From Chara braunii (taxonomy: Eukaryota; Plantae; Charophyceae): a stretch of 64,000 nt of DNA. Shown one piece after another: positions 17,173 to 58,194 of this stretch. Below the pieces are notes generated by a model. It did not search any database. It was given only the letters and a program-made list of their open reading frames with translations, and was not told where the DNA came from. Both the position numbers and the translations under genes were made by a program. The stretch spans positions 4,433,602-4,497,601 of the forward strand of contig BFEA01000031.1 of the NCBI GenBank assembly GCA_003427395.1, written 5' to 3'. Position 1 is the first letter of the stretch. Each line of letters opens with the position of its first letter.

Positions 17173-17859
17173 TTATGCGGTGTTCTGGCGCAGCACGTGC
17201 AGTTCCCCGTAGCGTGGTTCCGTCGACGCTGGCTCCGGCTTCCACGGAATGAGTCGCTCGTGGGCGGGACACTCGTTGGGCAGCTGGAGGCACGTCAAAC
17301 CATCTGCATTTCCGTGTTGCCGAGTGGCGCGGTGACGGATGTCGAAGTCGTAGTCCTGCAGACGCACCGCCCACCTCCCCAGTGTTCCCGTGTAATTTAT
17401 GTTGTTGCGCAACGACAACAATGGCTGATGATCCGTCACGAGCACGGATTTATGGCCGTAGAGGTACGGTCGGAAATGCTAAATCCCCCACACCACCGCC
17501 AAACATTCACCTTTGCACGCTTCGTAGTTGGACTGCACTTGGCTCAGGGTCTTCGATGCGTATTTGATGACTCGCTCCTTGCCATCTGCTCCCTGTTGAG
17601 TCAGGACTGCTGACATCGCCTGCGGCTGCCAATCCGTGTGCAGGGCGAACGGTTTGGTCGGATCAGGTCTGGCCAGGATGGGCGCCGTTGTCAGGGTCTT
17701 TTTGAGCGCCCGAAAAGCCTGCTCACATTCCAATGTCAAGATCAACTGCTCTTCTTTCTTCAATAGATTCGTTAGAGGCTTCGCCACGTCAGCGAACCCC
17801 TGGATGAAATGCGGGTAGTAGGACGCCAGCCCTAGGAAGGCTCGAACCTGAGTAAGCGT
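17173..17859 (-). pseudogene. RT connection and RNase H of gypsy pol
   Basis: TQVRAFLGLASYY, LTTAPILARPD, ALHTDW, YASKTLS, GECLAVVWGI, VTDHQPL, RWAVRLQDYDFDI, HGNADGL. Confidence 0.95.
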
Positions 17860-18872
17860 TGTCGGGACAAATACCCTGACAAGGGTATTTGCCGGGGGTT
17901 TTCAACGTCGAACATCGTCCGACTTTTTCGTGGAGTTGAAGGACTTGATGAGATTCACGTTGCCAAAAGTTTATTCAGACCTGACCGCTAACTGAGAGAC
18001 TAAAAGATTTTAGAACCCTGGTGGGAAAGGCAGGTTGGGCCTGCTGACTGTAGGCTGGGCCTACTGGGAGTTGCATCTCTACATATACAAGAGGTGCAGA
18101 TCTAGCTCATATAATAGGAGCTAGCCCAGTAGGTTACTACGCAAGACTTTCGCCCAGCAGATACTAGGATAAAGCCCGAACGCACGCGCCCGACTGGGCT
18201 AGCCCCTTTTTGGAGCTGGCCGTTGGGGTTGGGGGCGCGGTCAATTTCGACCGCGAGATCTCGAGATCTCACGGTTGAAAACGACCGCGCAGACACTGCA
18301 TGGCCGCTGCACAAGGATGACACGTATAAATCAAGTAAAGAAAAAAATATATAAAAATAAAAATAAATAATAAAAATAAATAAATAAATAAATAAAAAAG
18401 AAAACAGCGCCACATGGCGGCCGAAGATGTGCCTGAGGGCACATAACCAGTAACCGTTGACATAAACCAACGGTTTTATTATTTGCAAAAAAAAAAAAAA
18501 AGCGTCAGATAGCGCTGTGGGAGGAAGATGGGGACTTACAGTCCCCAAAGGAAACGAGAGGCGCCTGTCGAAAATGAGCAGCCGCAATTTGGTTTCAATT
18601 TTCTTTTTATATTTTTTAGATTCTTTATTTTTTTAGATTCTTCCTTAGATTTTGTTTTTTTTTAGATTTTTTTTTTTTTAGATTCTTTTTTTTTTAGATT
18701 CTTTTTTTACGAGCTAATGGAGAAATGCCCGTTCGTCGAAAACGAACGGGCTGTACCGAGACTGTTTCGTCGGAGTTTCACCGACTCATCAGGAGGTTGT
18801 AGCCTCGATAGTCGGCCTAAGGGAGTGTGCGAACAAAATCGCACGAATCTACCCCTAAATATGGCGGGGTAC

Positions 18873-21900: not shown

Positions 21901-22693
21901 CAATGCATCTCATCAGGTCAAAACTAAGGCAACCGATTACCTTATCGGTTGCCTCAATGTTATTGTTGATAGCCAACTTCTTGTTGACGGTTGTATGGCT
22001 GTTTTGTGATATTCGACCCAAGGCGGTCGGATTGTTTTTTTGATATTTTGATGTTAAATGTATCAAATGATGATTTGAATTCTCCCAGTTATTAATCTCA
22101 ATTGGATGTATATTCTTATCAATTGTGGTCAACTCTTTTTGGTGTAATTATGTATAGTTGTTATAAATTTTGTTTGACGATGTGCCTAAGGGACTAGGAT
22201 AAATAATTGGGTTTCACGCTTGGTCTAGACCGCCCTAGTCGACCGGCGTACGCTTCGTACTTAGGAGATCAGCACCCTATGGAACAGACGATGTCCGGGT
22301 TCAATTGGCGTCTTAATCGGGCGTGCCTATACTACAGCGAGCGAGCAAACGCCCTCGGCCGACCCACCTGTACAATTGCATCTAAAAGCTTTCGCACGTG
22401 GGTCGGTAGCTCGGTAAGGATACGCCCCTAAGGGTGGTGACAACCCCTTAGGGAAGCAAGCTTATGCCCCACGGGAACCTATCCTGTCGTTGGGGACCAC
22501 GGGATGTACAGCTGGCGCACCCGGCTAGAGCGGCGAAGGAACGATGCGACCGCGACCGTCTCGACGGTCCGCAGGATTAATTATGCGTCATCCCTAAGTT
22601 GTCTCTATGGTTACTATTTAAACTCCTACGTGACATGGTCGGGAGGGCTCCCGCCTCTTTCAAAAGAAAAGGCGGCGGCCGATGCGCTCGACA
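17860..22693 (+). mobile_element. 4.83-kb solo LTR (family G1) inserted in pol, 4-bp TSD GCGT
   Basis: TGTCGGGAC...GCTCGACA flanked by GCGT at 17856-17859 and 22694-22697; removing it restores in-frame EAPAPVTLTQVRAFLG. Confidence 0.9.
20220..20675 (+). repeat. 54-bp tandem repeat inside the solo LTR
   Basis: Unit ggcagtggtgcggaagcgctgccgaatttttgtggcagcggcactaagtttgac, about 7-8 copies. Confidence 0.9.
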
Positions 22694-24068
22694 GCGTGAC
22701 CGGAGCTGGGGCTTCTTGTGCCGCTGCCACCTTCCTCGGATCCGGCTTTAGTCCGTCGGTCGTGACGATGTATCCCAAGAATGAGATTTCAGACAGAAAG
22801 AACTCGCTTTTCTCCAAAGCCACTTTGAACCCCGCATCCTTCAGTGCATGCAAAACCCACTCAACGTGTTCCACGTGGTACTCATGTCTTTTAGAAAAAA
22901 ACAAAATATTATCCATGTACACAGTCACACAGAAGCTGATCAGGGGCTGCGTCAACCGGGTTTTGTTAACGAACTCGGCAAAGGCCATGTTCATGACCCA
23001 CTGAAAGGTCGCGGGGGCGTTGCATATTCCCATGGGGCATCGGATCCATTGCCACGTGCCCTCGAATAAGACAAAAGCGGTTTTGGGCCGGTCTTCCCGT
23101 CGGACCGCGACGTGGTGAAAACCATGTCGAATATCGAACTTCGAGAAGACTAGAGCGGATCCGAAGGCATCGAGCAGATCATCGATCCGAGGCAACGGAT
23201 AGACATCCTTGGTGGTAATAGCGTTTAGCTTTCGGTAGTCAATGCACACACAGACCGATCCACTTCGTTTCGGCACAAGGCGCATGGGAAAGGAACAGAG
23301 CCCGAGTGAGGGTTCAACCCATCCCAAACGCTCGAACTCCCGTACCCTTTCCAGAGCCAGTTGTCTTTCCTTCAGGGAGTAGCGGTATGGTCGGCAGTGT
23401 ATTAGGATGTGATCCCCGGTATCTACAGCGTGTTTAATCAGGTGCGCCAGTCCGATATCGTGATCGTGGATACTGACCGCCTCGGGGTACGCCCGTATTA
23501 TTGCTAGCAAGAGACGCCGGTACTCGTCAGGCACATGGACCGGTAACTGAATATCGACGGTTCCTTTGGGAAAGGAAACCGTCGCGGTAACTGTAGGTAC
23601 CAACGCACCTTCCTCTGGTGAAGCGCCGAACAGGGAGTTGTCGGTTTTCACCGAGAGTACGGTTGCGATAAATTGACTGTCCGCCTGGCTGATTGGGTCC
23701 TTTTCGCCACCGTCTTCCAGTTCGATTTCGGTCGAGGGTTCTATCGAAAAGGCCTGGGAAAGTTTTGTCGGTCCCCATCGGTTTCCCGAGGATGTGGGTT
23801 GAAACGACACCCCTTCTTTCAGAAGAGACGCGGCCTTTGCATCGGTCAGAAAGGGTCGCGGCGGATTGAAAGACGGATCACACAGTCCTCGCAGCTCCAT
23901 AAAGCGTTCAGGGAGGGGGTCCGTTTGGAGATAGAGGGTCGCAGGGGGTTCCGAAAGGTCAGCTATTCGGGATACCCGCAACAATGGCTCACTCTTAAGG
24001 GTAGAGGAGTACACCTGGGACCACCTAGACCCACTTCGAGTATCGGAAGGGGAAGGCCTCGAAAACAA
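22694..24068 (-). pseudogene. Gypsy reverse transcriptase
   Basis: CIDYRKLNAIT, YPLPRIDDLLD, FSKFDIRHGFHH, PMGICNAPATFQ, VYMDNI (YMDD mutated), KSEFF, FLGYIV. Confidence 0.97.
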
Positions 24069-24080
24069 ATGCCACCGGTC

Positions 24081-25110
24081 CTAAACTCGGATCGAATAGC
24101 GGTCAGGTTTGTCCAACCCCTGGGTCTCAGCCGAAGATCCACTTTCGCTCGAAACTAACTGTCGAATCATATAGACTCGGTGAACTTCGGTGGAAATGCG
24201 AGGAACGAGTTGCGACCGTACATGTACAGCTGACCGCATCGGTATCGTTTGAGGTTTGGGGTGAGCCGATGTTAGCACCACTTTCGCTTTGTCAAAGTGC
24301 ATTCGAGCTCCAACTGCCGCCTGCCACGGAATTCCTAGGAGCACGTCATACGCTTCAACGGAAAAAATTCCTAGAATTAAATAATCATTCTATAGTGAAA
24401 TTATGTTCTAAATTTAAAATTTTCATTCCATCTTAAAAAATGTCATTCTAATTTTTAAATTTTCCATCTTACTTAAAAACTTTCCTTCTAACAATAGGGT
24501 GTCCCTTCTTATTTGAACTGCATGCTAGAGGTGGAATGAAAGTGTGGACGAGTTCATGAAATATTTTAATTGGACTGTCATTCTAAGTAAGGATTTCTAG
24601 TCATAAATAGGTTAATCCAATATAAATTAGAAGATATCTCTTGTAGTGGAATGAAAGTTTAATTAAAACATTTCATAAACTCGTCCAGACTTTCATTCCA
24701 TCTTGAACAAATAGATGTAGTTGGAAGGGAAAACTCATATTTAGACGGAATCTTACTAAATAAAACTGAAAATTTTAGAATTGGACAAACATTGGAATGA
24801 TAATTTATAAATATGAAGGATTTTTTTTTTATGGAATGTTTTTTCAACTTTCATTTCTCGTGGGAATTTTTCTGTTGTTGCACATCCAATACAATTGCAT
24901 CAAATAGACAATGCACCCGTCCAACCCGTATGGGCACGTTCGTGATTCGCCCCTTGCAATGAATATTGTCCTCCGTAGCCGACACATACAGTTCATCGGG
25001 TCGGAGAGGATGGACTTGCCCCTCCCGACCTAATCGTTTGGTTAGAGCCCACGAGATAGCCACGGCTGACGATCCGGAATCGAGGATGGCGGCCGAGGGA
25101 CTTTCCCAGA
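24081..25110 (-). pseudogene. Gypsy aspartic protease, split by a MITE
   Basis: AAILDSGSSAVAIS motif at about 25055-25095; VLDVQ|AYDVLLGIPW is restored when the MITE is removed. Confidence 0.85.
24356..24877. mobile_element. 522-bp AT-rich MITE, TIR CAAC(G/A)GAAAAA(A)TTCC, 2-bp TSD (TT)
   Basis: TIRs at both ends; internal TGGAATGAAAG motifs in both orientations; excision restores the protease frame. Confidence 0.9.
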
Positions 25111-25187
25111 CCTCGCAATCGCACTCGACACTCTTCCAAGTTATCGATTAGGCTCTAAGGAACACTTCGGGTTTATCCAAGGGAGGG

Positions 25188-27223
25188 TCAGCGGCCTGGA
25201 TCATGCCGATCCGTTTTGGCTCTTGAGTTTTCGAAGTCGATGGTTGGGTCTCGGCGGCTTTTGGCTGATCGTTTATGACCAGCTTTTTTGCCCTTTCGGT
25301 GTTTGTCAAACCGGCGTCGGTTTTTTATGCATCGCTCGATTAGTTTCTCATTGCCTGACTCAGAAATGGTCAGCAGGTAGGGGATGGGCACCGGGATGCG
25401 GAGATCCAAGGCCATCATGGCGTCCAGGACGTCGATCTGACTGTCCTTATACTCAGGACCAGGTGTCGCAAAGTCTTCGAACCCGGGTCTCCACGGCCCA
25501 AAATCGCTCTCCTCATTAATCTGTTGGACGTGTCTTATCACTCCAATGGTTCCGGGTTCAAGCATGACCGTCGTCATATATTCATCCATTCCTATTTCAT
25601 CCGCCGCGGGGGACACTATTTCCGTCGTTCCAGTGTCCATAACGGTGGCTACCCGACCATGTCCTGCAGCGGTAGGAGCACCTAACGGAATTTGTCTCGC
25701 GGATCCCCCTTGGGCCCGGGGCTTCGGACAATCTTTCGCTAAGTGACCCGATTGGTTAGAGTTGTAACACTGCATGGGCTGGATGGCCCGTGCAGCAGGG
25801 GCACGTGTGGCAGCGGAGCCAGCGACCATCAACGGAAAAATTTCCCAGAATTAAATAATCATTCTATAATAAAATTACAATCTAAATTTTAAATTTTCAT
25901 TCCATCTTAAAAAATGTCATTCCAATTTTAAAAATTTTCATCTTACTTGCAAACTTTCATTCCAAGAATAGGGTATCCCTTCTTATTTGGACTGCATGCT
26001 AGAGATGGAATGAAAGTCTGGATGAGTTTATGAAATATTTTAATTGTACTGTCATTCTAAGTAAGGATTTTCAGTCATAAATATGTTAATCCAATATAAA
26101 TTAGAAGATATTTGTTAGATTAGAATAAAAATTTAATTAAAACAATTTATAAACTCATCAAGACTTTCATTCCATCTTGAACAAATAGATGTAGTTGGAA
26201 GGGAAAACTAATATTTAGACGGGAACTGATCAAATAAAACTGAAAATTTTACAATTGGACGAACATTGGAATGATAATTTATAAATATGAAGGATTTGTT
26301 TTTTATGGAATGTTTTTTTAACTTTCATTTCTCCTGGGAATTTTTCTGTTGGTAGCCGCTCGCTGCCTCTGCAGGCTTTGCACGAACTCGGTTGAGGGTG
26401 TCACCGCCAAAACTAACTGTGCGGCGACCTCCTTCATGGATATATCGTCCGCGTCCTGTCCCCTTGGCGTAGGTTGAGAGCGCTTGGGGACCGGGGACGG
26501 CGGTGCCTTTCGGTCCATACCCTGCGTAGGTAGTCCTAACCCGGAACGCTCTTCGAACATCCGAGCCGCAGCCGAATAGTTGTTGTGTCGGACACCTCCA
26601 GGATCATCTTCATCTGATTAAGAATCCAGTCCCCCATCGTATTTCTCTTTACCGTACCTGATAGCATACTTCATTAGCTCCGTCAGGAAATTGTCGATGG
26701 GGTTGCATTTCTTGCGGATCTTTTTCCGCAAGTGAGAATCACACAAGCCTCTAACAAAGTCGGTTCGCACCATCTTTTCATCCGCCCCGGAGCGTTCGGC
26801 TAAGTAGGAAAACCGCTCGGCATATCTAGCTAAGGTCACACGGGGCTGCTGCGTGTATTCTTTTATTAAGCGCAGACACTGCCCTGGTGCAATATGGTCA
26901 AAACACCCCAGGAACAATCGCGAAAATTTTTCCTAATTGGTATAGGGATTTTGTCCATACCATTCGAAGGCGGTTCCCGCCAACCAACCTGGGATTCGTT
27001 CTCGGAGCAGCTGGTCCGACCACCCCTGAGCCTTCAGGGCGCCCAGCGACGTGCGTGGATCCGTTTCATCCTCGGTGAAGATTGGAACCTTCGAGGGCAG
27101 AGGGACCAAGTACAGAGGCGGGTTAGCCATATCCTCATGATTCGCCACCCCTTGTCCAGGTTCAGCCATGGTGCGAGGCCGGTTTTGACCCCGCTCCCTT
27201 GCTGCGTCCTGATTTCCGTTCAA
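25188..27223 (-). pseudogene. Gypsy gag (capsid-like region and CCHC knuckle), split by a MITE
   Basis: WLAGTAFEWY, YAERFSYLA, DFVRGL; CYNSNQSGHLAKDCP (degenerate CCHC). Confidence 0.85.
25830..26351. mobile_element. Second copy of the 522-bp MITE, same orientation
   Basis: Same length and TIRs as 24356-24877; flanks AT/GT fit a 2-bp TSD with one CpG-type transition; excision keeps the gag frame. Confidence 0.88.
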
Positions 27224-29535: not shown

Positions 29536-30609
29536 GTTTTAGGTTTTTTTTTTTTTTTTTTTGGACATCCGGACAAGGTGGATGGGTGCGGTGGAAGGGC
29601 GAGGGTGATGGTGAAGGGGTGGCGGAGTGCAAAGTGTCCTCGGCCCCACGTTGCCCCTTCCCCGAGTGATTGGGCTCGTTGCCCTCCGTACGCTCTAGTC
29701 CCGGAGCAAAACATAGTCCCCAAAGTACACAGTCTACAGTCAATATGCAGAAAAGACACAGTTGCAGTAGACACAGTTGGCTGGGAACCTGCAGAATCTC
29801 CAGATTTCGCTGGTTGCAGTAACTTACCGCTTTTGCTGGTTTTTTTGCCCAAGGTGAAAAATCGATGTGCTCATGCCTATGTTTTTCTGCCTCAAACGTC
29901 ATCAGAATCACACAAAACTTGGTGGGCTGTCTCACTGTATCACAGGGAAGACCCTCACAAAATTTTGTGTCATTCCGACACCGTTTAGGCCAAGTTGCCC
30001 GTTTGGGGCGTTCGCCGACTTGCGGGTGAACAGTTCCGAGGAAGTCCGTTTTCTTATTTTTTCAGAAAACGGACTCTGATGGTCTGCTGGGTCTGCAGGC
30101 CATCTGTTTATACTCAGAACATGAGGTCTGAGAATTCTCAGACCTCATTCCCAAGTTTTCGCAGCGCTGTTGCCGACGTGCCGTCGTCCACATTCCGCCT
30201 GTTTGCGTTTCCCGCGCAGTCCTTGCATCGGTGGTGGTTACTCTATCTCTTCCCTGGGCCAGCAGTCTGTCAAGGATTGCAGACCTACAGCTAACAGTAA
30301 AAAAAAACACAGCAACATCTCAAACTGCCGGAAAACAGCAACCCATCAAACCTCCCAATTACCGCGTTCGAATAGAACACGGGGGGAGGGGACGTGAGGA
30401 CATGCAGTACCAAGCCTAGAACGTGAAGGGGAGAAATCAGCGTTTTGTCGGAGGGTGAGAGACAGACAATGCAGACCTCCTACACTCCTAGACCACTATA
30501 CCACACAAGTATTGAAGTTGCATCACGTCCAAGTGAAGAATCAGGCAAAGGAAGAATCACGGAGGAGGGGAACACACGCACAGGCTCACGTACCAAAGGA
30601 GGAAAGTTG

Positions 30610-33600
30610 CGCTACATATGGGGAAGGAAGAACATTCAAAACAAGCACTTTGCAATAATCACTCACTGCACAACACTGAGATTGAAGCTGCGATTCACAC
30701 CCAAGTAGATAAACAAGTTAAAAAGTGACGAAGGGGAGAGAACTACACTCTCATAGGCTCACAATCACAAGGGGGAAAGTTGCGCTACATGTGGGGAAGG
30801 GAGAACAACCAAAACAAACACTTTGCAGTACTCATACGTCCCACAATACAAATATTGAAGTTGCGATTCACACCCAAGTAGCCAAACAAGCAAAAAGTGA
30901 CGAGCGGGAGGGAACTATACTCACATAGGCTCACAATCACAAGGGGGAAACTTGCGCTACACATGGGGAAAGAAGAACAATTAAAACAAGCACTTTGCAC
31001 TACTCACACACTCCACAACACAAAGATTGAAGTTGTGATTCACACCCAAGTAGCAAAACAAGTTGAGCACAAAGAATATGACGGAAATTCACAAGTTTGA
31101 GCTCACATACACTAGGGAGAGAGTTGCGATTCACATGGGAGTGAAAAAATGAACAAAACATGCACTTCACAACACTCAAATACGAGTTGGCGTCAACATA
31201 GGAGTTGCGCTTCACACCCAAGTAGAAAAACAAGTAGAATCATGAAGAATACGAGAGAAAATCACAAGTTTGAGCTCACACACACTANNNNNNNNNNNNN
31301 NNNNNNNNNNNNNNNNNNNNNNNNNNNNNNNNNNNNNNNNNNNNNNNNNNNNNNNNNNNNNNNNNNNNNNNNNNNNNNNNNNNNNNNNNNNNNNNNNNNN
31401 NNNNNNNNNNNNNNNNNNNNNNNNNNNNNNNNNNNNNNNNNNNNNNNNNNNNNTTCACACCCAAGTAGAAAAACAAGTAGAATCATGAAGAAAATGAGAG
31501 AAAATCACAAGTTTAAGCTCACATACACCAGGGAGAGAGTTGCGATTTACATGGGAGTAAAAAAATACACAAAACATTTACTTCACATCACTCAAACTCT
31601 ACTTGACATCAACAAAGGAGTTGTGATTCACACCCAAGTAGAAAAACAAGTAGAATCACGAAGAATATGAGAGAAAATCACAAGTTAGAGTTCACATATA
31701 CCAAGAAGAGAGTTGTGATTCACTTGGGACTGAACAAATGGATAAAACATGCACTTCACAACACTCAAACACTAGTTGGCCTCAACATAGGAGTTGCGCA
31801 TCAAACCCAAGTAGAGAAACAAGTAGAATCATGAAGAATGTGAGAGAAAATCACAACTTTGAGTTCACACACACTTGGGAGAGATTTGTGATTCACATGG
31901 GAGTGAAGAAATACACAAAACATGCACTTTACATCACTCTAACACAAGTTGACATCAACATAGAAATTGCGCTTCACACCCAAGTACAAAAACAAGTAGA
32001 ATCATGAAGACAATGAGAGAAAATAACAAGTTGGCGCTCACATACATCATGGAAAGAGTTGCGATTCACGTGGGAGTGGAGAAATAGACAAAACATGCAC
32101 TTCACATCACTCAAACACTACTTGAAATCAACATAGGAGTTGCGATTCACACCTTTAAGTTAGCAGAAAAACAAGTAGAATCACGAAGAAAATTAGGGAA
32201 AATCACAAGTTTGAGCTAACATACATTAGGGAGAGAGTTGCGATTCACATGAGAGAGAAGAAATGGACAAAACATGCACTTTACATCATTCTAACACTAG
32301 TTGACATCAACATAGAAGTTGCGCTTCACACCCAAGTACAAAAAATAAGTAGAATCATGAAGAAAATGAGAGAAAATCACAAGTTTGAGCTCACATAAAC
32401 TAGGGAGAGAGTTGCGATTCACATGGGAGTGAAGAAATAGACAAAACATGCACTTTACATCACTCTAATACTAGTTGACATCAACATAGAAGTTGTGCTT
32501 CAGNNNNNNNNNNNNNNNNNNNNATGAGAGAAAATCACAAGTTTGAACTCACATACACTAGGGAGGGAGTTGCGATTCACATGGGAGTGAAGAAATAGAC
32601 AAAACATGCACTTTACATTACTTTAACACTAGTTGACATTAACATAAAAGTTGCGCTTCACACCCAAGTAGAGAAACAAGCAGAATCATGAAGGAAATGA
32701 GAGAAAATCACAAGTTTGAGATCACATACACTAGGGAGAGAGTTGCGATTCACATGGGAGTGAAGAAATAGATAAAACATACATTTTACATCACTCAAAC
32801 ACTACTTGACATCAACATATGAGTTACGATTCACACCCTAGTAGAAAAAAACAAGTAGAATCACGAAGGAAATGAGATAAAATCACAAGTTTGAGCTCAC
32901 ATACACTAGGGAGAGAGTTGCGATTCACATAGGAGTGAAGAAATGGACAAAACATGCACTTCACAACACTCAAGCACTAGTTGACATTTACATAGGAGTT
33001 GCGCTTCACACCCAAGTAGAGAAACAAGTACAATCATGAAGAATATGAGAAAAAATCACAAGTTTTAGCTCACAAACAATAAGGAGAGAGTTGCGATTCA
33101 CATGGGAGTGAAGAAATGAGCAAAACATGCACTTCACAACACTCAAACACTGGTTGACATCAACATAGGAGCTCCGCTTTACACCCAAGTAGAGAAACTA
33201 GTAGAATCATGGAGAATATGAGAGAAAATCACAAGGTTGAGCTCACACATACTAGGGAGAGAGTTGCGATTCACATGGGAGTGAAGAAATGGACAAAACA
33301 TGCACTTCACAACACTCAAACACTAGTTGACATCAACATAGAAGTTGCGCTTCACACCCAAGTAGAGAAACAAGTAGAATCGTGAAGAATGTGAGAGAAA
33401 ATCACAAGTTTGAGTTCACACAAACTAGGGAGAGAGTTGCGATTCACATGGGAGTGAAGGAATGGACAAAACATGCACTTCATAACACTGAAACACTAGT
33501 TGACATCAACATAGGTGTTGAGTTTCACAGCCAAGTACAAAAACAAGTAGAATCATGAAGAATATGAGAGAAAATCACAAGTTTGAGCTCACACACACAA

Positions 33601-33775
33601 GAGAGAGAGTTGTGATTCACATGAGAGTGAAGAAATAGACAAAACATGCACTTTACATCACTCTAACACTAGTTGACATCAACATAGAAGTTGCGCTTCA
33701 CACCCAAGTAGAAAAACAAGTAGAATCATGAAGAAAATGAGAAAAAATCACAAGTTTGAGCTCACATAAACTAGG
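30610..33775. repeat. 173-bp satellite-like array inside the LTR (about 18 units including N gaps)
   Basis: CACACCCAAG register at 33007, 33180 and 33353. Confidence 0.92.
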
Positions 33776-34408
33776 GAGAGAGAAAGGAGGAAGATGGGGA
33801 GAAAGGGGAGAGGAGGACGAGGGAAAGGAAGGAAGAGAGGAAGGGGAAGAAGATGGAGATGAAGAGGAAGAAAAAGAGGAAGGAGAAAAGGAGGAAGAAG
33901 GAGAAGGGGAAGGAGAAAAAGATAAAGAAGAAGTAGAAGAAGAAGAAGAAGAGGAAGGGGAGTGGGAGAGGGGGAAGTAGAAAAAGGAGAAGAATGGGGG
34001 ATGTCTCTTCACTCACCCCTTGGATGTCTTCCACTCTCAACGAAACTTCCTTCCTCTTGGCTATGACTCCCTTCTTCTTCAAGCCTCTCTCCTTCCTCTC
34101 TCTTCTCCTCCAAGTTGTAACGGGCTCCTGTCACTAAGGCTAGGGAGTCCTCCCCTCTAGGAGGGCTAATGAGACCCCTCTTAGCCTTGTCTCCTTCTCC
34201 ACTAGCCTGGGAGCTATGGCAGATAACCCTCCTCACTACCACTAGCCGGTTGAGTCTCTCCTCACTAGCTCGCAGCGTCCTCCACACTCTCAAATTGGTA
34301 GGGGTTCCCCTCACTACTCTTAGAATGCCTCTAGAGTTCTCACGGGCTCATTTGGGCAGCATGGACACTCCTCATGCAAGTGTGAGTGTGGCGGACTGAA
34401 TCCCCAGC

Positions 34409-34415
34409 TTATATA
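34409..34415 (-). promoter_or_regulatory. Candidate LTR TATA box (TATATAA)
   Basis: Conserved in both G2 copies (also 62144-62150), in GC-rich context in the LTR sense orientation. Confidence 0.6.
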
Positions 34416-35236
34416 GGCTGGGGACAGCACTCCGGCCAGCCCATGGGTCTCCCCAAGGTGCCCCACAGTGAACCGAGGTACCCCCTTGGCCAAATTTTCC
34501 CTTTAGGCCTCTCCGGGGGCACCTGGGCCTCTTTTTGGCTAGGTACATGCAGTCCGAGAGGCTGGTACCAACTCGGCCTACCCCTTGGGCTTTTTTCCAG
34601 CCTCCTACCTCTTGGAAAAAACTGCCCTCTTGAATCCAAGGTCCAAGGGGTAACCCACTTGGAAGAAAAAAACCTAGTGGACATTTTTCTCGATTTTTTC
34701 AAGTTTCGGCCTCCTTTGGGTAGGCCGGACCATTTTCCCAAGTGGCGGCACATTTTCAGCCTTGGATCAGGCTGAAATCCAAGGCCACCAATATTCAAAG
34801 CTACCCTATGGTGGTTCTTGGTTCAATTTTGAGCCTATAGGCTCAATTTTTCAATTTTTGGTGCATCTGGACCTCTTTTTGGACCAAATGCACTGTTTCG
34901 TATTTTTCTTCTTCTTTGTTTCTTTCCTTTTTGGGGTGCCACCTCATTCCGGATCTAGTCGTTTTGTGCTGGCCCATAAAAAACGGTTGTTTTCTCTCCA
35001 CCATGAGATCTGATGTCAGATCCATGGTTCAAAAGAAAACCGGATTCTCTCCTTTATGCATTTTCTCTTATTTTTGCCTTTTTAATTCAGATTTTATTGA
35101 GAACAATCCGGCCTACTCCCCTTGGGTGTTGGAGAAGTGAAATCATCATTGGGACCTGGCAGTCCCTACCACAGCCATCCCAATGGGCCGGCACACTCTC
35201 CTCCACCCATTTCTCCTATTTTGTCTCATTCTCCCT

Positions 35237-35277
<41 letters not shown>

Positions 35278-36554
35278 GACATGTGTCAAGTTGCTGTGCA
35301 CCCTTTTTCTAGGTCTTAGAACCTTAATTGAGGCCAGGTTTATGGCCGGCTGTTGGCCGTTACACCCCGGCCTGCCAAGGTGGCATGCCCTTGCTCCTAG
35401 GGAGCCAATTATTATCCCCTTAGCCTTCATTTTGAGCCCCTTTGGCTCCAATTTTTCTTGGTTAGCCTATTTCTTGATTGGAGCCCCTTAAGCTCTTGTT
35501 TTCTTAGGCCTAGCTTGTCCAAAATACCCCGGACTGCTGGGCAACCCTCCCCTTATTATTTTATTTTTTTTGCCCCTCACTGTCGTTTTTCATCCGTTTA
35601 AGTCCCGCTAGTGTTTGCACTAATGGTGCTAATATTTTCCACCGTCTAGATCCTCGATCTTGGCGGTGCCGTTTGCTTCTTACGACCATTTCCTACCGTG
35701 GCTAGTGGTTTCCCCCTCGGGATATCTCAAGTCCCCGCCGCTTCCTGCACTAGTTCTATTTTTCCGTTCCGCCGGCGGCGCCGTCGATAAAGCCCTATTC
35801 CCAACAATTTTCATTTGGGTCCATTTGGCCCCCGGTGTCATCCCGGTTGACGCCCAATTTTTATTCGGGACTTCCTATGTCCCCGACAGTCCTGTTTTAT
35901 TCTTTTTCGTGCGCCTCAAGTGCCGTCGATAATTTTCCGGCCGCAGGACCCCCGTCGTGTCGTCGTCGTTTTACAGTCGCACTCCCCTAGGCCCGCTGTG
36001 CCGTTTTCTAGTTTTTCGGGCATGCCACGGCCCGTTTTTCCTTGGCTCGGACATCCTTTATATAGTCCTTTATTTCTTGGACTTCATCCACAACCATTTT
36101 GCTAGCCCCACAGTCCGATGTCATGCCCCATGCCTATGGAAAATAAAACGTTAATTACCCCAAGGCAACCGGGCTCAATTTTGGCTCTCGGAGTCCAAAA
36201 ACCTTATGTTTGCCCCTCCTTATGCAGTCCGTTACATCTCGGACTGCACTAGGGGCGGTTTTCCTTGCCTCAATCTCCCACAACTAACCCCCTACCAAAA
36301 GAAAATCAAGCGGTCAATTTCCAAGTGCATTCGATCTCAATTTTGACTTTCGGTGCACTGAAGACTTGTTTTTGGCCTCCCCCATGCAATCCGTTATTTT
36401 TCGGTTGCAAGGGGCCTTGATTTTTTTTTAATTTTCTCTGCATAAATCAAAAAAAATAAAGGTCTTTTGTAACCGCCATATTGCTAAAATGAATCTGGTC
36501 CAAAATCTCTACCCTAGGTGGCCGTTTTCGTCCATTAGTGCCCTTTTGACTTTT

Positions 36555-36657
<103 letters not shown>

Positions 36658-37479
36658 TTTTTTTTCTTTTTTTTTCTTTTTCCTCCACTTGTGGACAGTT
36701 GGGACTTGGCAGTCCCTACTCGTTGCAGTCCGAACTGACGGCCAACTCACTTATCCTCTCTCACCTCTCATTTTTTTTTATTTTTTTTTTCTTTATGCAT
36801 GCCAAGTGCCAACAAGCTGTTAAGGCCCTTTTCTCAATTTTCTTTTCTTTTCTTTCCTTTTTCCTCCTTCCTTGGACAGTTGGGACTTGGCAGTCCCTTT
36901 TGACGGCCACCTCACTCATCCCCTCTCACCTCCTTGTCTTATTCTCTTTTTTTTTTTTTTTTTTTTTTGCATGTCCAGTGATAACTAGCCGTTAAGGCCC
37001 TTTTGTTGTCTTGTTTTCTTAGTTTTGGCCCTTCCTATGCCCAAGGGTCAGTCCGTTATTTTTTGGACTGCAGTTGTGGCCCTCCCATGCCCTTGGGAGC
37101 CACCGTTAACCCTTCTCTCTCCCAAACGGTAGGCCCCCATGCACCGATTTTTCCCAGGGAGCCTATTTTTCTCATATTGGCCCTTTTGGCCCCATTTTCT
37201 TGGGGGAGGCTAATCCGGGATTTTTCGGATTGCTCCCATGCCTCCAAGTACCTATTTTCTTTACTTTTTATTTTTCTTTTGGCCTTCCCACTTGCTCTCA
37301 CTAGTGCTTGCACTAGTGGTGCTAATAATTTTGCCCGTCAAGATCTTCGATCTTGACGGTGCAACTTGCTCTATAATTTTTTTTTTTTTTGCACCACGTG
37401 CCGTACCGCAAGTTTTCCTTGGGACGTCACAGGTCCCCGCCACTTGTCCCGCACTAGTCCCCGACACGAGTCTCTGACA

Positions 37480-37865
37480 CTAGTCCCGCCGGTACTTGTC
37501 CAGCCGGTACCGCATTTTACGCCTAGCCCCACGTAGTCCTCCGCACTTGTCCCACTGGTACCGCACTTTCTCTCGGTCTTACGCGGTTCCCGTCACTTTG
37601 TCCCGTCAGTACCGTATTTTCTTTTCGTCTCACGCGGTCCCCGACACTTTGTCCCGCCGGTACCGCATCTTCTTTTAGTCTCACGTGGTCCCTGACACTT
37701 TGTCCCGCCGGTACTGTATTTTCTCTTCGCCTCACGCGGTCCCCGACACTTTGTCCCGCCGGTACCGCATTTTCTCTTGGTCTCACGTGGTCCCCGACAC
37801 TTTGTCCCGCCGGTACGGCATCTTCTCTTGGTCTCACGCGGTCCCCGACACTTTGTCCCGCCGTT
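37480..37865. repeat. 51-bp tandem repeat inside the LTR
   Basis: Unit gcggtccccgacactttgtcccgccggtaccgcatcttctcttggtctcac; counterpart at 58695-59150. Confidence 0.9.
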
Positions 37866-38366
37866 GGCCTCCCCCGACATCCTCGTCATTTTCCCACCTT
37901 ATGGCGGCCTCCCTCCCTTGTCCTTCTTGCGTCCCTTGCATCGTCTTCCCCGGGCGTGAGTCCTCACTCAGCCCATGGCCCCCTTGCCGCTGCGTCCTGG
38001 TGGCTGCCTGGCCTGACTTCATCCTCTCGCGTCGGTGCCTTGCATACTATTTCTCCCTCTCCCTCGCTTCTTTTCTCTCTTTGCGGCACGCCTCCTACGT
38101 CATTACCTTTTCCGACGGTCCTTCTCTATTTCGGGGAAGGGTCGCCTTAGCTGTTTTCTCACGGTCCTTTGTCACTCCCTGTTCTATAAGTTTCTTCTTA
38201 GTTCAATAGTCCTAACAACTTTGGGCACCCCCTAGATCCTCAACGCTCATGCCTATGCCTTACTCCTTCCGTCCTTCTTGCCTCCGGTTTTCTCTGTCGT
38301 GCACTAATTAGCCGTATACAACCTCTCGAGTGATGAGAAGTTATTCGTGACTCACCAGTCCCGACA

Positions 38367-38380
38367 TATTCCCCCCACTC
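38367..38380 (-). other. Polypurine tract
   Basis: GAGTGGGGGGAATA directly before TGTCGGGAC on minus. Confidence 0.8.
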
Positions 38381-38525
38381 ATTCGCGATGTCCTCATCGT
38401 GCACCCGTCCATAGTCAGTAGAGGTTCGGAAATGCGGACAAGGGGAAAGGAGGGGCGGGGTAAGACAGATAATTAGCTTGCTAAGGTTCGTTTTTTTCTT
38501 TTACCGTTCCTTTCTCAAGTTTTTT

Positions 38526-39260
38526 TTAACTTCCGCTCCGTGGGGTGGAGGAGGGTATGGGGAAGTCAAAGGTTCTTCTTTGGGCTTCTCCTTTTTTCCT
38601 ACAGCATAGACCAGGTTGCTCATTTTTATCATAGCTCTGCTTCTTTATCTTTCCCTTGATCGAGACACGAACTTCCTCTTCAGTCAACTCTGTATACCCA
38701 GCAGGGTAGCCCATAATTCTTTCGACTTCAGTAACATGAAGCAGACGAGACTCTCCTTGCTTCATGCATTTAACTACTAGCATGCTGACTTTATTCCAAG
38801 GATGACAAATTGTTGTCATAACACAATTGGTTTTTTCTTTACATGCCTTGGCATTGTTGATAACAATTTGTAGGTAAGTTTTCGGATGTGACTCAATGTC
38901 AGGCATTTGCTCCGGAAGGGGGATGTTCGTCCGGTGCAAACGCCGTCTTTACTGTGGTGATACACACCTCGAATCAATGACCACAGACACAACTCTCCTT
39001 CAGTGCTTTGTAATCTCAAATTTTTCTTCTCATTTCATTGAGAAAACATTCTCGAGCAGAAAACCATTTTGGTTTCGTCTCATTCATTACTCTTAGAACA
39101 TAAAAAAAAAATCTACTTTTTTGCCCGTGCAATCCATGCTTTCCCGTCACCCTTCCCCGGAGCTCAGGCTTTGCCAAATCCACATACATTTCCCCCGAGT
39201 CATTTGACGCGGCCTTTCTCGGGTCCTGGCAATTCTGCATGCATATCACCATTTTGTCCT
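38526..39260 (-). pseudogene. C5-cytosine DNA methyltransferase fragment (DNMT3-like/phage-like), disrupted
   Basis: GLHGQKSRFFF..VMNETKPKWF/LLENVFSMK (motif VI, ENV at 39045-39053), IDSRCVSPQ*RRRLHRTNIP (motif VIII), RLLHVTEVERIMGYPAGYT (motif IX); one frameshift and three stops. Confidence 0.85.
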
Positions 39261-40689
39261 TCCTTGCTTTTTCCCTTGATTGGATTTCCATGTGCATTGC
39301 TCAGCTCATCCCTTCTGCATCTCTTTTCCAACCACCTTGTCAGACCTTTTTCTCAGGCTCATGCAAACTAATTACTCATATGTTTCTCATCCTGCCATTC
39401 TTTTTCTCAGATCCATACAAAGTCACTTATACAAGTCTTTTCCTTTTCGGACATATCGCCCGACTCATTTTCACGCTCATGCCAAATCAATCACACAAGT
39501 CTTTTTCTCTTCGAGGCATCTTGCAAGACCCCTTTTTTCAGGCCTACGCAAAACCAATTACACAATTCTGTTATGTTCTGGGCATCTTGCCAAACCCCTT
39601 TTTTCAGGCCTACGCAAGCCAATTACACAATTCTTTTTTGTTTTGGGCATCTTGCCAGACCCCTTTTCTCAGGCCTATGCAAAACCAATTACACAATTTT
39701 TTTGCATGTGTTTTCATTGGCAGATGGCATCCCTTTCCGCCACTCAAAACGCGATGTCCCCATCGCGCGACTGATTCTCACTCGGAGGTACGCAGACCTT
39801 TGGCCCACCAACCACAATCAAGGACACAAGCCCATCCGCTTCACAAAAGGAAGAGTGACCAGTTTCTCCCCAGCGGACAACGCCTCATCCTCCTACGCGG
39901 TCCGACCTTCTTCTCTTACGTGGCGAGCATCAATACTGAGGTTCCTCCTCACGTCTGGCAGGCAGGTCCAATCCGAGTCTCCCAGGGCCTCGTCTAGCCG
40001 TAAGAGCGTTCCTCGCGAATCGTTCCTCCCGAGTGGTGATTTTGTGGATCCGGCCTCTTCCTTTCAAGAGAGTTGGACTCTTAATTAGTCAACGAGTGCA
40101 GTTACGAAGACCTCGCAATTAGTTCTGAAACGGTTGTAATGTTCCGGGAGGAGAGTGTCAATGCTCCGTGGTGGTGGCGGACTCCACCCGGTACCTCGTC
40201 CAGCCCCTCCCCTTGGACAGTGTCACCCAACTTAGCGCGGGCAGCCGAGGTCCGACCCAAACGGCCATGGCACCCTTCTATGACATGGCGTGTGGTTGGA
40301 GAGTAGCAAAATAGACTAGATGAGAATGACTCTCTCACCCATTTGGTTCTCTCGCCCTTTGACGTTTAGGCATTCAACACGAGACGGAGTTTGAACTCCC
40401 CGACTAGAGCTCGTTGTTGGAGTTGGTTCCGGACGGTCGGCACGGATCCAAGTGGTAGGTGCCTTGGTCCTTTAACCCTCATCCCCTTAAAAGAGGAACA
40501 TATCGCGCTGAGACTCTTTCCCTCAAAGGGATAGAGGTCTTGAGGTCGCGGTGCATGCACCAATATCCCCCTCTTGTTGAAGCCAAGGACTAGAAAAAAA
40601 GAGAAATTTCATTTCAATGTTATTTTCATGGTCGGCCCGACGACCTTTTTTCAAAGTTGTCTAGAGTCCCCTGTTTATGCAATGCAATT

Positions 40690-41255
40690 TTCAATACTCA
40701 GTCCAATTTCAATGCTCAAGACCATTCCGATGCTCAATCCAATTACAGCGCTCAATCCAATTCCAATGCTCAATCCAATTCCGGTGCTCAATCCAATTTC
40801 AATGCTCGATCCAATTTTAGTGCTCAATTCAATATCTCTTCCAAGGTTGAGTCCAATATCTTTTCCAAAGTTCATCTCAATATCTCTTCCAAGGCTGAGT
40901 CCAATATCTTTTCCAAGGCTTAGCTCAATATCTCTTCTAGAGCTGAATCCAATATCTTTTCCAAAGCTCAACTCTTCCCAATTCCATGCATCTCAAACAG
41001 TCATGCAAGGGGACCCTAGTGCCAATTCCAAAGAATGACCTTTGTCAGGGACCATTCCGAACAACCTGGTTAGGGTCGTTCTTTCCAATTCCAAGTCGAA
41101 CAGCCTGGTTAGGGCCATTCTTATCCATTCCAATCGGACGGTCTGGTTAGAGTCATCCTTATTCATTTCAATTGGGCAGCCTGGTTAGGGTCATCCTTAT
41201 CCATTTCAATCAGACAGCCTGGTTAGGGTGACCATCATTCTTATCCATTCCAATG
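40690..41255. repeat. Short tandem repeats (18-bp, 24-bp and ~38-bp units) in the internal region
   Basis: tgctcaatccaattccaa; aatatctcttccaaggctgagtcc; cagcctggttagggtcatccttatcc... units. Confidence 0.8.
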
Positions 41256-44391: not shown

Positions 44392-47300
44392 TATCGAGCG
44401 CATCGGTCCGGCACCGCACGGGGCAGTGCGGGACCCTCCCGACCGCGTCACGCAAGAGTTGGTTTAAATCCTTTGTCGCAATGTACATGGGGCTTCCGCA
44501 AGCCGCTCCGGCCGAGTGCGCCAGCCATACCTCTCCCGAGCCCCTACGACAGGATAGGGTCTACGCGAGGCACGACTTACCTCCATCTTACGGGAGCTGT
44601 CACCTCCCTTCGGTGGGCGTATCCCCGCCGAGCTACCAGTCCACAGTACAAAAGCTAATCAGTTGCAATCGCAAAGGTGGACCAGCCGAGGGCGTTTCTC
44701 ATTCGCTATAGCATAGGGGGTACGCGCGGTAATACGACTATTGGGCCCGCACGCGAACCGACATCTTGGGGGGCTGAAGTCCCAAGCGCGGCTCGTCGTC
44801 GGTCGACTAGGACGCATCCCACACAACACGCGCACACCGCTTTACAGACACAAAATAAAACACACACACACACACATACGAAATGACACAACACAAACAA
44901 CGCGACAACGCTTCAAGACCCTCGGTAGCCAACCCATAACATTTCAATGTGGAAATCTGATAGGCGTCGCGCGTGAGAGTTGATATAAAACCGCGGGGAC
45001 GCAGGGCTAAGCCATATCGACTCGCAATGTAGGCGTACACAAACAGTCGCAATGATGACGTACCATGTAGTGCCCATGATCGTGTGGTCCTCGTTAGTCT
45101 CGAGGGTCGCATTCGACACTCAAGTGTCGGATGACACGCGCCTTAAGGGTTAACCTCTCGACGCTGAACAACCGCCGAGCGGGGTTGAAGACCACACACC
45201 CTCTTTTGCACCTTATGCAGAGCGGGTGGTACACAGGTCCATACTTGTGGTGGAAGTCGTTTTCTTGCGGCCCTGGGATGAGTCTTTCTCCAGGCCTGGG
45301 CGAAAGTCAAGGGGTTTGACTTTGACGGTTGCCACAGACTAGAACGTCCAACCATAAAAATCTCTAACAAGCAAAGGATAAAGGGGAATCCCCCCTTTTC
45401 TCTCAAATACATAATATGGTCAACCCTTACACACAATTACAGTAGGCCTCTCAAGTACTCAGGGTACTCGTAAATATATGAGGGTTAATTGCTTAGGAAG
45501 ATCACTTCTCACAGTCACAGTGGGGCTCCTCTCAGCCATATATGTATGTAATCGCAGACAGTCACATCCAGAGTCCGGACCACAAACATAACTACAAATC
45601 ACATCAGAGATTCAACCAAAGGGTCCACACACTACACGGGGTCATCTTCAATCATTCTCTGTTCTCATACCATTTGCTTTAGCCATGCAAACCTCAACCT
45701 CATGGCAACCTCCCCGCAATAAAAATACTCAGTATCATTGTTAAATGACCATTCAATAAAGTCCGGGTAAAAACACAACAAAACAGATAAACCACCAGGC
45801 TAAAGCCTTTAGGTTGAGTGGCAGAAGTGAATTGGAGTTGAATCGTAAACCGACGAATCGACAACCGACCTATTATTAGTGATAACAGAAAATGATCCTC
45901 AAGGGATCAAGCTGAATCTAGTCCTGAACTTGAATCAAAACGATCAAGATGACCTGTAACACATGACGGGTCAATCCCAAAGGCTAAACCTATAAGTCCA
46001 TGAAGAATAATCCCCACATCATGATCTCACTCAAATCTTTCTAATTTACTAAGCCTGAATCTACCTTTAAGCAGTGCCCAAAGCAAAGGTAGACTCTGGC
46101 ATAATCTCGCCTATATAGAGTGGATTGCTAGAATTGCCATCTCTCAAAATATAATTTATCTCCACTAAACTAAGAAAATTTCGGCAGCGCTTCCCGTAGG
46201 AAAAGTGCATTTTCAGAATTTATATAAGTCCATATATGGGCGCATAGATAATCTCTAACTCTAGAAAGTCAAATCTAATTTAAATATTCTCTAACTATGA
46301 AAGCATTCCCTTTAGAAAGGAAAACTTCCCAGATTTATACTAAGTCAGATATGAGCTCAGAAAACAACTTGAGATCAACTTAGACAAGATTTAACTAACT
46401 CCTTAGTTTTGCTGAAATTTCGGCAGCACTCCCTTTAGAAAACTGTTATTCCAAAATTTATAACTCCCTTAATTAGCAAAAATTTGGGCAGCACTTCCTT
46501 TAGAAAAGGAGACTTTCCAGATTTTTACTAGGTCAGATATAAAGAAAAAAAAGTTGAACTTGGACAAGTCAAAAATTGAATAACTCCTTGAATTTGTAGA
46601 AATTTCAGCAGCGCTTCCCATAGAGAAAGTAGCTTGCCGAGATTTATACAAAGCCCAGTACAAAAAATGATCCCATAAAATGCAAGAATTGACCTAAGCA
46701 AAAAAAAATATCACAAAAAACGCAGGCATTGAAACTAACTCTTATGACTCTAGCACGTGGCGAGCAACTAAAGCAACTACCTATCAACCTGAAACTCAGA
46801 CTAAGTAGTGGCCTCACTCAGTCACATGCAAGTCATACCACAAAGGTAAGTACTCTCGCCAATCCCAAGTTAACCTTAACGAAGAATAGTTCATGATCCC
46901 TCAATGATTTAACCCATTACACCCAACTTACATAAGGCATAGGTCAGGCCGCCTGAACTTACAGAGGGCACCCAACTTAGCCAGGCCTAGAGTTAGAATA
47001 CCTAAACTTATAGAGTGTTCTCACTCGGCCAAATATACGCAAACAGAGGACACAACTACTTTTCTCTTCTTTGGGCACAGGACTAGACCACTCTAGTCGC
47101 CCCAGACTGTTTAAAGTATCCAAGTTGTATATATTTGTCTTCGCCTTTGTCTTCTAAGGCTGCATATGACTGAACTAACTTAAGTTCAGTCTGCCCCAGT
47201 TTACCATCAGTTCTATTCTTATTTATATTTTCTTCAAGTTGTGATACGGCTATAGTCAGACAACCTAAACTTATAGAACAGTCCGATTAACTCATTCTTA

Positions 47301-57911: not shown

Positions 57912-58194
57912 TCAAGTCGGGGCGAGGGCGAAGCTGACGATCTGAAGGTGGAACCTGGACGCGGGCGCGACGTGGAACCGAAGAACCAGCTTGCCTTGCA
58001 TCTTGCGTTCGTAGCGTGCGAGAACGTCAAGAGTTGTTGCTTGAAGTTTCGCACGGGTCAACCAACGGTCAACTCGATGTGTGCAGTATGCAAAATGTAC
58101 CAAGTACTCGGTAGGCCTGTTATCGTAGCGTCTCTGGCAGATGATGTCGCCGACCTCCTGAAATCCGTCCATAAAGGTTGGGTCTTGCGAACGT
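57912..58194 (-). pseudogene. Chromodomain at an integrase C-terminus (chromovirus), interrupted upstream by an LTR insertion
   Basis: QEVGDIICQRRYDNRPTEYLVHFAYCTHRVDRWLTRAKL...VLARYE, directly before PPT and LTR. Confidence 0.8.

What the first reader, a model, noticed from the sequence alone, without database searches (positions are those of the whole stretch)
38367..39260. Cytosine DNA methyltransferase carried in the 3' internal region of a giant-LTR retroelement
Seen: motifs VI, VIII and IX of a C5-MTase lie on the element's sense strand, in a frame ending about 150 bp before the PPT and the 7.9-kb LTR. The spacing ENVFSMK.EEKFEITKH.RRVVSVVIDSRCVSPQ.RRRLHRTNIP follows the compact DNMT3/phage-type layout, and no intron is visible. 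A possible motif IV relic (CQD) sits at about 39223-39231; motifs I and X are not visible. Known (from memory): DNMT capture has been reported in dinoflagellate and charophyte retrotransposons. Inference: a gypsy-type giant-LTR family carries, or carried, its own MTase, perhaps to methylate its cDNA, LTR or satellite. This copy is non-functional.
Basis: partly seen in the sequence, partly recalled or inferred. Interest (0 to 1): 0.85.

Follow-up and report, generated by a model that had tools for sequence, protein, structure and literature searches.

The report
Retrotransposon-amplified fragment of plant DNMT3
This is a broken, intron-less middle piece of a plant-type DNMT3 DNA-methylation gene lying just before the end repeat of a giant jumping element and present in many related copies, most likely picked up from a host mRNA and carried along as dead cargo rather than serving as the element's own enzyme.

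Summary
Window 39138-38679 (minus strand) is a DNMT3-type catalytic-domain piece: PDB hits are all DNMT3, and the closest proteins are streptophyte host DNMT3s (about 40% identity). It is intronless, ends about 145 bp before a PPT and a 7,921-bp TG..CA LTR, and is highly multicopy in DNA runs.

The 'own methyltransferase' reading is not supported. Motifs I, IV and X score at chance. The 'CQD' cysteine is private to this copy (97-100% of the laid depth differs). The upstream flank shared by other copies is non-coding. The piece sits between 18-bp direct repeats with an A8 tract, as a truncated processed-mRNA insert would. No pol is linked.

Best reading (0.72): passive Bs1-like cargo, a host DNMT3 mRNA fragment amplified by an LTR family. 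It differs from KnitGypsy-Dnmt3, where the enzyme is whole and sits inside Pol.

Twist: if the host is Chara braunii (my guess, unproven), a published table lists no DNMT3 there, so this would be a fossil of a lost or unannotated silencing gene. The scan noted DNMT3-in-Pol elements on other genomes (unchecked notes), but nothing like this arrangement.

The parts
38679..39138 (-). DNMT3-type catalytic-domain fragment (post-motif-IV helix, motifs VI, VIII, target-recognition region, IX); 1-nt frameshift at about 39060-39063; stops at 39032-39030, 39002-39000 and 38951-38949
38526..38678 (-). In-frame K/E-rich continuation, likely the start of the host DNMT3 linker; ends at a TAA formed with the A-tract; no motif X, no DUF3444
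38520..38527 (-). A8 tract, possible poly(A) or internal-priming relic at the 3' end of the insert (inferred)
39139..39156 (-). 5' copy of an 18-bp direct repeat flanking the insert; 12/18 to the 3' copy here, 16/18 when the letters seen in other copies are taken site by site
38493..38510 (-). 3' copy of the 18-bp direct repeat
39157..39270 (-). Non-coding 5' flank shared by other copies; holds the chance CQD at 39231-39223
39330..39720 (-). Degenerate 65-bp tandem array, clean at 39484-39703
39732..39758 (-). Second, upstream PPT-like motif; laid DNA depth falls from about 23,000 (39774) to about 320 (39721) across it
38367..38392 (-). PPT and the motif before it, abutting the LTR
30446..38366 (-). 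7,921-bp LTR with TGTCGG/CCGACA ends and internal 51-bp and 173-bp arrays; a second, inverted copy 85-92% alike starts at 58195

Best explanation
A truncated, intronless piece of a plant-type DNMT3 gene lies in the non-coding 3' region of a giant-LTR element and is present in many related copies; it was most likely copied from the host's spliced DNMT3 mRNA and amplified as passive cargo that could not make a working methyltransferase. SHOWN: DNMT3 identity, no introns, absence of motifs I, IV and X in this copy, flanking direct repeat and A-tract, multicopy state, and a non-coding 5' flank in the copies that could be laid. INFERRED: (1) The source was a spliced host mRNA. (2) It entered once, either by LINE-type target-primed reverse transcription into an element copy (repeat + 5' truncation + A-tract; my odds about 55%) or by a template switch between element RNA and co-packaged mRNA (about 35%). 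(3) That copy stayed mobile, probably in trans, and its descendants diversified their LTR U3 while keeping the cargo. (4) The cargo has decayed without protein-level constraint.
For: Top hits among 1.84 billion representatives are host-type: 3 of the best 7 carry DUF3444, and named ones are from Calypogeia and Closterium. The tree places it sister to the streptophyte host DNMT3 clade (94/86, just under the starred threshold). Gene calls on relatives break at two recurring places, 6 of 40 hits starting at R|FL(V/A)ENV and 12 of 40 leaving homology after K(T/C/I)GV, which I read as host introns; the window runs through both. Summed contig depth over the fragment is about 1,000-6,200 in run X1, against 7-9 for contigs identical to this copy, and 53 distinct X1 contigs differ at one site; the link to the PPT has depth 1,200-1,500. 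The Cys codon of CQD differs in 97% (X1) and 100% (X2) of depth and in 13 of 13 RNA reads. The 13 majority differences in 39151-39250 are 10 non-synonymous, 2 synonymous and 1 stop-forming in that frame. All 4 listed other-copy letters in the 5' 18-mer agree with the 3' repeat; 0 of 5,000 shuffles reach 16/18. Inside the insert, the 16 listed differences are 11 non-synonymous, 2 stops and 3 synonymous, with no sign of purifying selection on the line to this copy. Other copies show a tandem duplication of about 30-34 nt and further indel-type loose ends. No protein above 46% identity was found.
Against: Two of the three stops are private to this copy: 99% and 89-98% of depth carry a sense codon there, for residues that host DNMT3s conserve, so the family once had a more open frame. 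The third stop was too thinly covered to judge. Only 14-22% of depth shows the frameshift base left out, with many contigs clipped there, so whether it is shared is unresolved. The fragment is more widely shared at 80% identity (depth in the thousands) than the adjoining LTR U3 (depth 100-150), which could mean constraint, although the non-coding 39.7-40.5 kb stretch is shared even more widely (about 10,000). In this copy alone the direct repeat is only 12/18, which 16% of shuffles reach, and three of the four agreeing letters are held by only about half of the depth. Only 18 of 136 loose ends were shown, and copies under 80% alike are invisible. The tree puts it outside, not inside, the host clade. 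No empty-site copy appeared among the 15 of 63 joints shown.
Confidence: 0.72

Rival explanations
1. One reading: the family, or an unseen master element, carried a complete DNMT3 as a separate 3' ORF to methylate its own cDNA or LTR, and the visible copies are deletion derivatives.
For: Two stops are private and the majority letters restore conserved residues. The tree position is outside the host clade. Precedent exists for active retrotransposon DNMT3 (PMC5890265). A weak 'WSML' after motif IX recalls motif X, but 0.68 such matches are expected by chance. A few RNA reads in X8 lie in one direction over the fragment.
Against: No motif I, IV or X above chance. The CQD is private and the shared 5' flank is non-coding. 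Direct repeats bound the piece at the point where homology starts. No close intact protein was found in four searches (the word-index searches are weak evidence).
Confidence: 0.14
2. The fragment is kept because it helps the element. As part of silenced repeats it would feed siRNAs that methylate or repress the host DNMT3 gene, or camouflage the element; less likely, it makes a truncated peptide that poisons DNMT3 oligomers.
For: It has been retained across many LTR variants. Captured fragments acting as siRNA sources against donor genes are described for maize (PMC13317346 section 11). Chara braunii is listed with 0 DNMT3 and 2 DRM (PMC12344493 supplementary table 1), if that is the host.
Against: I have no small-RNA data. 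The host species is not established (0 of 10 exact look-ups found). The same table lists DNMT1 as 0 for that species and DNMT3 as 0 for Penium, so annotation gaps are plausible. Neighbouring non-coding DNA is shared as widely or more. There is no coding constraint on the line to this copy.
Confidence: 0.1
3. A single local processed pseudogene that happens to lie beside an LTR.
For: Direct repeat, A-tract and 5' truncation fit a retrocopy.
Against: Depth is 100-fold or more above single-copy level, with dozens of distinct variant contigs, continuous through to the PPT.
Confidence: 0.02

Closest known systems
KnitGypsy-Dnmt3 of Klebsormidium nitens (de Mendoza et al. 2018, PMC5890265; abstract, passages, sections 9 and 11 read, supplements term-searched)
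   Same: DNMT3-type, intronless, canonical motif order, multicopy, in an LTR-type retrotransposon of a streptophyte-like genome.
   Different: There the domain is complete, inside the Pol ORF, with key residues kept, Ka/Ks below 0.2, in a divergent DNMT3 clade and with DIRS-like repeats. Here it is a fragment lacking motifs I, IV and X, in the non-coding 3' region before the PPT, nearest to host DNMT3. No KnitGypsy sequence was in my tree.
Maize Bs1 and other LTR-retrotransposon transductions of host gene fragments (review PMC13317346; passages and section 11 read)
   Same: Partial host coding segments without a full ORF, carried and amplified inside an LTR element.
   Different: The cargo comes from a DNA-methylation enzyme of the host's own silencing machinery, there is one segment rather than three, no chimeric ORF is seen, and the LTR is 7.9 kb.
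Host DNMT3 of non-flowering streptophytes, MTase + DUF3444 (Yaari et al. 2019, PMC6453930; passages read, supplements term-searched, one file unreadable)
   Same: Nearest sequences (38-41% identity; hosts are 43-52% to each other), same motif order, sister group in the tree.
   Different: No introns, no motifs I-IV or X, no DUF3444, broken frame, many copies.
SymbioDIRS-Dnmt3 (PMC5890265)
   Same: Host-derived DNMT3 in retrotransposons; the authors suggest the native Dnmt3 was lost after capture, which parallels the possible absence of DNMT3 in this host.
   Different: Those are DIRS elements with the enzyme in Pol and shown active on CG in yeast; this one cannot be catalytic as it stands.
LARD-type non-autonomous elements (recalled, no call)
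   Same: Very long LTR with a non-coding, repeat-rich internal region.
   Different: The 5' LTR, PBS and full internal region are not delimited in this window, so membership is untested.

Membership tests
DNMT3-type C5 methyltransferase (sequence family) | Homology to the DNMT3 catalytic domain, above other C5-MTases | tested here: met
   26 of 26 PDB hits are DNMT3; blastp bits 126 for a liverwort DNMT3 against 76 for the best viral locus tested; no match in 50,697 phage records
DNMT3-type C5 methyltransferase (sequence family) | Canonical motif order (post-IV block before VI, VIII, IX), unlike the permuted DRM | tested here: met
   the DRM permutation is from established knowledge, and no DRM sequence was in the tree
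Functional C5 DNA methyltransferase | Motif I (SAM binding), motif IV Pro-Cys nucleophile and motif X present | tested here: not met
   All three at chance level; the CQD cysteine is private to this copy
Functional C5 DNA methyltransferase | Open reading frame | tested here: not met
   3 stops and 1 frameshift in this copy; two stops private, frameshift and third stop unresolved in other copies
DNMT3-encoding retrotransposons (KnitGypsy-Dnmt3, SymbioDIRS-Dnmt3) | DNMT domain inside the Pol polyprotein ORF | tested here: not met
   It lies between a tandem array and the PPT; no gag/pol hit among 140 ORFs in 39.3-58.3 kb
DNMT3-encoding retrotransposons (KnitGypsy-Dnmt3, SymbioDIRS-Dnmt3) | Purifying selection across copies (Ka/Ks below 0.2) | tested here: inconclusive
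   Only 16 majority differences against this copy could be classified, 13 amino-acid-changing or stop to 3 synonymous; no copy-to-copy dN/dS was possible without the genome
LTR retrotransposon | TG..CA repeat with terminal inverted ends, preceded by a PPT | tested here: met
LTR retrotransposon | Paired direct LTRs, PBS and target-site duplication | not testable with these tools
   The only second LTR in the window is inverted and belongs to another insertion; no genome held
Ty3/Gypsy superfamily | pol with RT-RNase H-integrase order linked to this LTR | tested here: inconclusive
   No pol linked; the pol remnants at 15.4-25.9 kb lie beyond the LTR's 3' end and belong to other elements
LTR-borne transduced host fragment (Bs1-like) | Host-gene-like, intronless, partial segment inside the element and present in many copies | tested here: met
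LTR-borne transduced host fragment (Bs1-like) | Donor gene identified in the same genome; empty-site elements exist | not testable with these tools
   No genome; no close protein; no empty-site joint among 15 of 63 shown

The most novel reading that the evidence does not exclude
A retrotransposon family captured a piece of the host's DNMT3 mRNA and, by spreading it in hundreds of silenced copies, turned RNA-directed methylation against the host's own de novo methyltransferase gene. That gene has since been lost, so these copies are the only fossil of it. The milder half alone (fossil of a DNMT3 missing from the host's gene set) has my probability of about 0.3.
Probability: 0.07. Interest if true: 0.85.

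Novelty: new member of a known kind. Interest (0 to 1): 0.36.

Why it matters
If the best reading holds, it is another case of gene-fragment capture by an LTR element and a caution: DNMT motifs in a retrotransposon are not by themselves evidence of a self-methylating element. It still dates and documents a host DNMT3 that gene sets may lack. If the host proves to be Chara braunii, listed without DNMT3 in one survey, the copies show that the lineage had an expressed DNMT3. They also make testable whether capture by a transposon can precede or drive loss of a silencing enzyme, as was suggested for Symbiodinium.

Tried and rejected
No genome is held for the window, so copies were seen only through laid contigs and reads. 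Summed depth is not a copy number; 'hundreds' is a rough ratio to contigs identical to this copy.

Searches that found nothing: word-index protein searches gave 0 hits at 100-319 aa (15 candidates), 320-2000 aa (183 candidates) and 1183-3375 aa with the alignment (5,514 candidates); these are weak negatives. The metagenome scan confirmed 0 of 96 pattern matches. The phage collection gave no match. IMG/VR gave only weak generic C5-MTases, from a scan that stopped at 28 of 64 parts.

Expression: no RNA holder was listed by the index. Laid raw RNA gave 15 reads on 2,801 bases in X8 (6% of the run read; one direction over the fragment; none 95% alike or more), 106 reads on 421 bases in X9 (both directions about equally; 1 at 95-99%, none at 99% or more) and 1 read in X10. 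This is inconclusive and compatible with DNA carry-over or read-through.

Motif relics rejected: CQD as motif IV and 'WSML' as motif X (0.68 expected by chance). My early idea that 39150-39250 aligns to the 65-bp repeat unit was not supported for this copy (scores at shuffle level).

Host species: 0 of 10 exact look-ups were found, so Chara braunii remains a guess from recalled genome features (48% GC, 1.1-1.3 Gb of contigs, dense LTR remnants).

Tree: 37 rows. It left out hits covering under 110 residues and 6 near-duplicates, and held no DRM or KnitGypsy sequence.

Literature: seven searches listed no paper on a DNMT3 fragment in a Chara LTR element. The library lacks most subscription journals, and bioRxiv supplements are closed.

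Full report
OBSERVATION. On the minus strand, 39071-38526 reads LLENVFSMK, then RRRLHRTNIP, then EVERIMGYPAGYTE, with three internal stops. Read through with X, it matches only DNMT3A/B/C among PDB chains (26 of 26 hits, best E 3.9e-6) and is colinear, with two single-residue gaps. Pfam PF00145 gives just E 0.12. tblastn with the nearest proteins extends the match across a 1-nt frameshift to 39141, adding the post-motif-IV block. Block scans put post-IV, VI and IX first among about 128,000 windows, while motifs I, IV and X score as expected by chance (0.22, 1.33 and 0.68 equal matches expected nearby). The frame closes at 38528-38526, the PPT abuts the LTR at 38367, and the LTR spans 38366-30446 (7,921 bp) with TGTCGG/CCGACA ends. 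A second LTR copy, inverted, starts at 58195 without a PPT, inside chromodomain-coding DNA, so it is a separate insertion.

WHAT IT IS RELATED TO. An HMMER search of 1.84 billion representatives returned 40 proteins at E up to 0.001, with identities of 29-46% and none higher. The best are host-type streptophyte DNMT3s: 3 of the top 7 carry DUF3444, the architecture described for non-flowering streptophytes, and named ones come from Calypogeia and Closterium. Identity to four such hosts is 31-40%, against 43-52% among the hosts themselves, which neutral decay could account for (inference). In a 37-row tree the fragment is sister to the 8-row host clade (94/86), apart from animal, chytrid and viral/bacterial rows. 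No DRM or KnitGypsy sequence was available for the tree. Phage records gave no match. Among the 40 hits, 6 gene calls enter homology at R|FL(V/A)ENV and 12 leave it after K(T/C/I)GV. I read these as conserved host introns; the window passes both places without a break, which points to a spliced-mRNA source (inference).

IS IT FAMILY CARGO? Yes. On 37900-40700, contigs identical to this copy have depth 7-9, while summed depth over the fragment is 978-6,221 (X1) and 1,229-4,768 (X2), and 1,200-1,500 in the link to the PPT (X1 and X2 are one sample, and depth is only a rough guide to copy number). The LTR U3 beside it has depth 100-150 and the LTR start about 20,000, so many LTR variants share the PPT end and the cargo spans several of them (inference). 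The non-coding stretch 39.7-40.5 kb is shared more widely still (about 10,000), so wide sharing is not special to the DNMT piece.

WAS IT EVER A WORKING ENZYME HERE? The narrow lay listed 32 majority differences, classified site by site. Two stops are private to this copy (99% and 89-98% of depth differ, giving residues that hosts conserve); the third was barely covered. The frameshift base is left out in 14-22% of depth with many contigs clipped there, so its status is open. Against function: the cysteine codon of the 'CQD' differs in 97-100% of DNA depth and in 13 of 13 RNA reads. The upstream frame shows 10 non-synonymous, 2 synonymous and 1 stop-forming difference. This flank is shared at depth 300-2,400 up to about 39250 and then falls to 10-40. 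Inside the insert the differences are 11 non-synonymous, 2 stops and 3 synonymous, near or above the neutral ratio of about 3:1 (established knowledge); this describes mostly the line to this copy. By eye, none of the 18 loose ends shown (of 136) encodes motif I or IV, and two from X9 (at 39149 and 39205) resemble the element's own repeat unit.

HOW IT GOT THERE. Homology starts at 39138, directly inside an 18-mer (39156-39139) whose best partner in 38400-38700 is 38510-38493. This copy matches 12/18, which is not significant alone (16% of shuffles), but all four other-copy letters listed in that 18-mer agree with the 3' partner (16/18; 0 of 5,000 shuffles). An A8 tract lies at 38527-38520, just inside the 3' repeat, and supplies the frame's stop. 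Repeat, 5' truncation and A-tract fit target-primed reverse transcription of a prematurely ended or internally primed DNMT3 mRNA into an element copy. A template switch within a degenerate repeat array would also leave a duplicated unit. Both mechanisms are inferred; either leaves an insert that never had the SAM-binding motif or the catalytic cysteine.

THE ELEMENT. Upstream lie a degenerate 65-bp array (39720-39330) and a second PPT-like motif (39758-39732), across which depth drops about 70-fold. The 1.36-kb array-DNMT3-PPT module therefore looks like an add-on behind an older 3' end. None of 140 ORFs in 39.3-58.3 kb hits gag or pol; the RT, RNase H and integrase remnants at 15-26 kb belong to other elements. 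The superfamily is thus unproven, and the copy may be non-autonomous or cut by nesting.

EXPRESSION is inconclusive: 15, 106 and 1 reads in X8, X9 and X10, none 99% alike, with X9 in both directions.

COMPARISON. De Mendoza et al. 2018 (PMC5890265) describe complete DNMT3 domains inside Pol under purifying selection. This finding fails those defining features and is better filed with Bs1-like fragment capture (PMC13317346). Two unchecked notes of this scan report DNMT3-in-Pol gypsy elements in liverwort and moss genomes; nothing similar to this stretch was on file. Sarre et al. 2025 (PMC12344493; passages and supplementary table 1) list Chara braunii with DNMT3 0, DNMT1 0, CMT 1 and DRM 2. No call identifies the window's host. 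If it is that alga, as I guess from recalled genome features, the copies record a DNMT3 that is lost or unannotated; the zero for DNMT1 warns that the table may reflect annotation gaps. I also saw passages only of 10.1101/2021.11.30.470311 and 10.1101/2024.07.11.603080; neither bears on the element.

VERDICT. A real feature, correctly spotted and over-interpreted. Passive, amplified fragment of host DNMT3: 0.72. Element-owned enzyme now decayed: 0.14. Retained as an anti-silencing decoy: 0.10. New member of a known kind; interest 0.36.

Noticed in passing
window 39758-39732 (-): A second PPT-like motif, nearly the same as the one at 38392-38367. Laid depth falls from about 23,000 to 320 across it, so a much larger family ends its internal region here and the DNMT3 module follows as an add-on or as a remnant of another LTR.
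   Followed up: partly
window 39010 (loose end in run X9): 16 RNA reads leave the reference here; by eye the loose letters, read in another frame, resemble a DNMT3 block that lies about 120 nt further on. This may be an internally deleted subfamily, a second diverged DNMT3 copy, or chance.
   Followed up: no
window 39073-39106: Some other copies carry a tandem duplication of about 30-34 nt inside the DNMT3 fragment (joint and loose ends).
   Followed up: no
window 57915-58202 (-) and 58195-64000 (+): The second giant LTR copy is inserted into a chromodomain-coding stretch (PF11717, E 3.2e-5), probably the integrase tail of another element. The 5 bases flanking both LTR copies contain ACG.
   Followed up: partly
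window 30596-33782 and 62810-63855; 37496-37863 and 58697-59115: The LTR owes much of its 7.9 kb to 172/173-bp and 51-bp tandem arrays, so it may seed satellite-like DNA.
   Followed up: no
window 37900-40700: Differences between other copies and this one are dominated by T>C and A>G (111 and 75 places in X1, against 74 C>T and 45 G>A), so this copy has a net loss of C and G, as methylation-driven deamination would give.
   Followed up: no
window 4082-4927 (-): Ulp1-family protease ORF (PF02902, E 4.5e-16), possibly part of a DNA transposon.
   Followed up: no
window 15393-17901 (-) and 22626-25850 (-): Remnants of other LTR retrotransposon pol/gag regions: integrase, RNase H, RT and zinc knuckle.
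   Followed up: no
window 2-361 and 44481-44838; 22293-22534: A 360-bp inverted repeat pair (89%) with a third diverged copy; another dispersed repeat family.
   Followed up: no
proteins P0009 and P0021: Chytrid DNMT3-like proteins with PHD and GATA domains (P0009 also PWWP) rank among the best hits.
   Followed up: no
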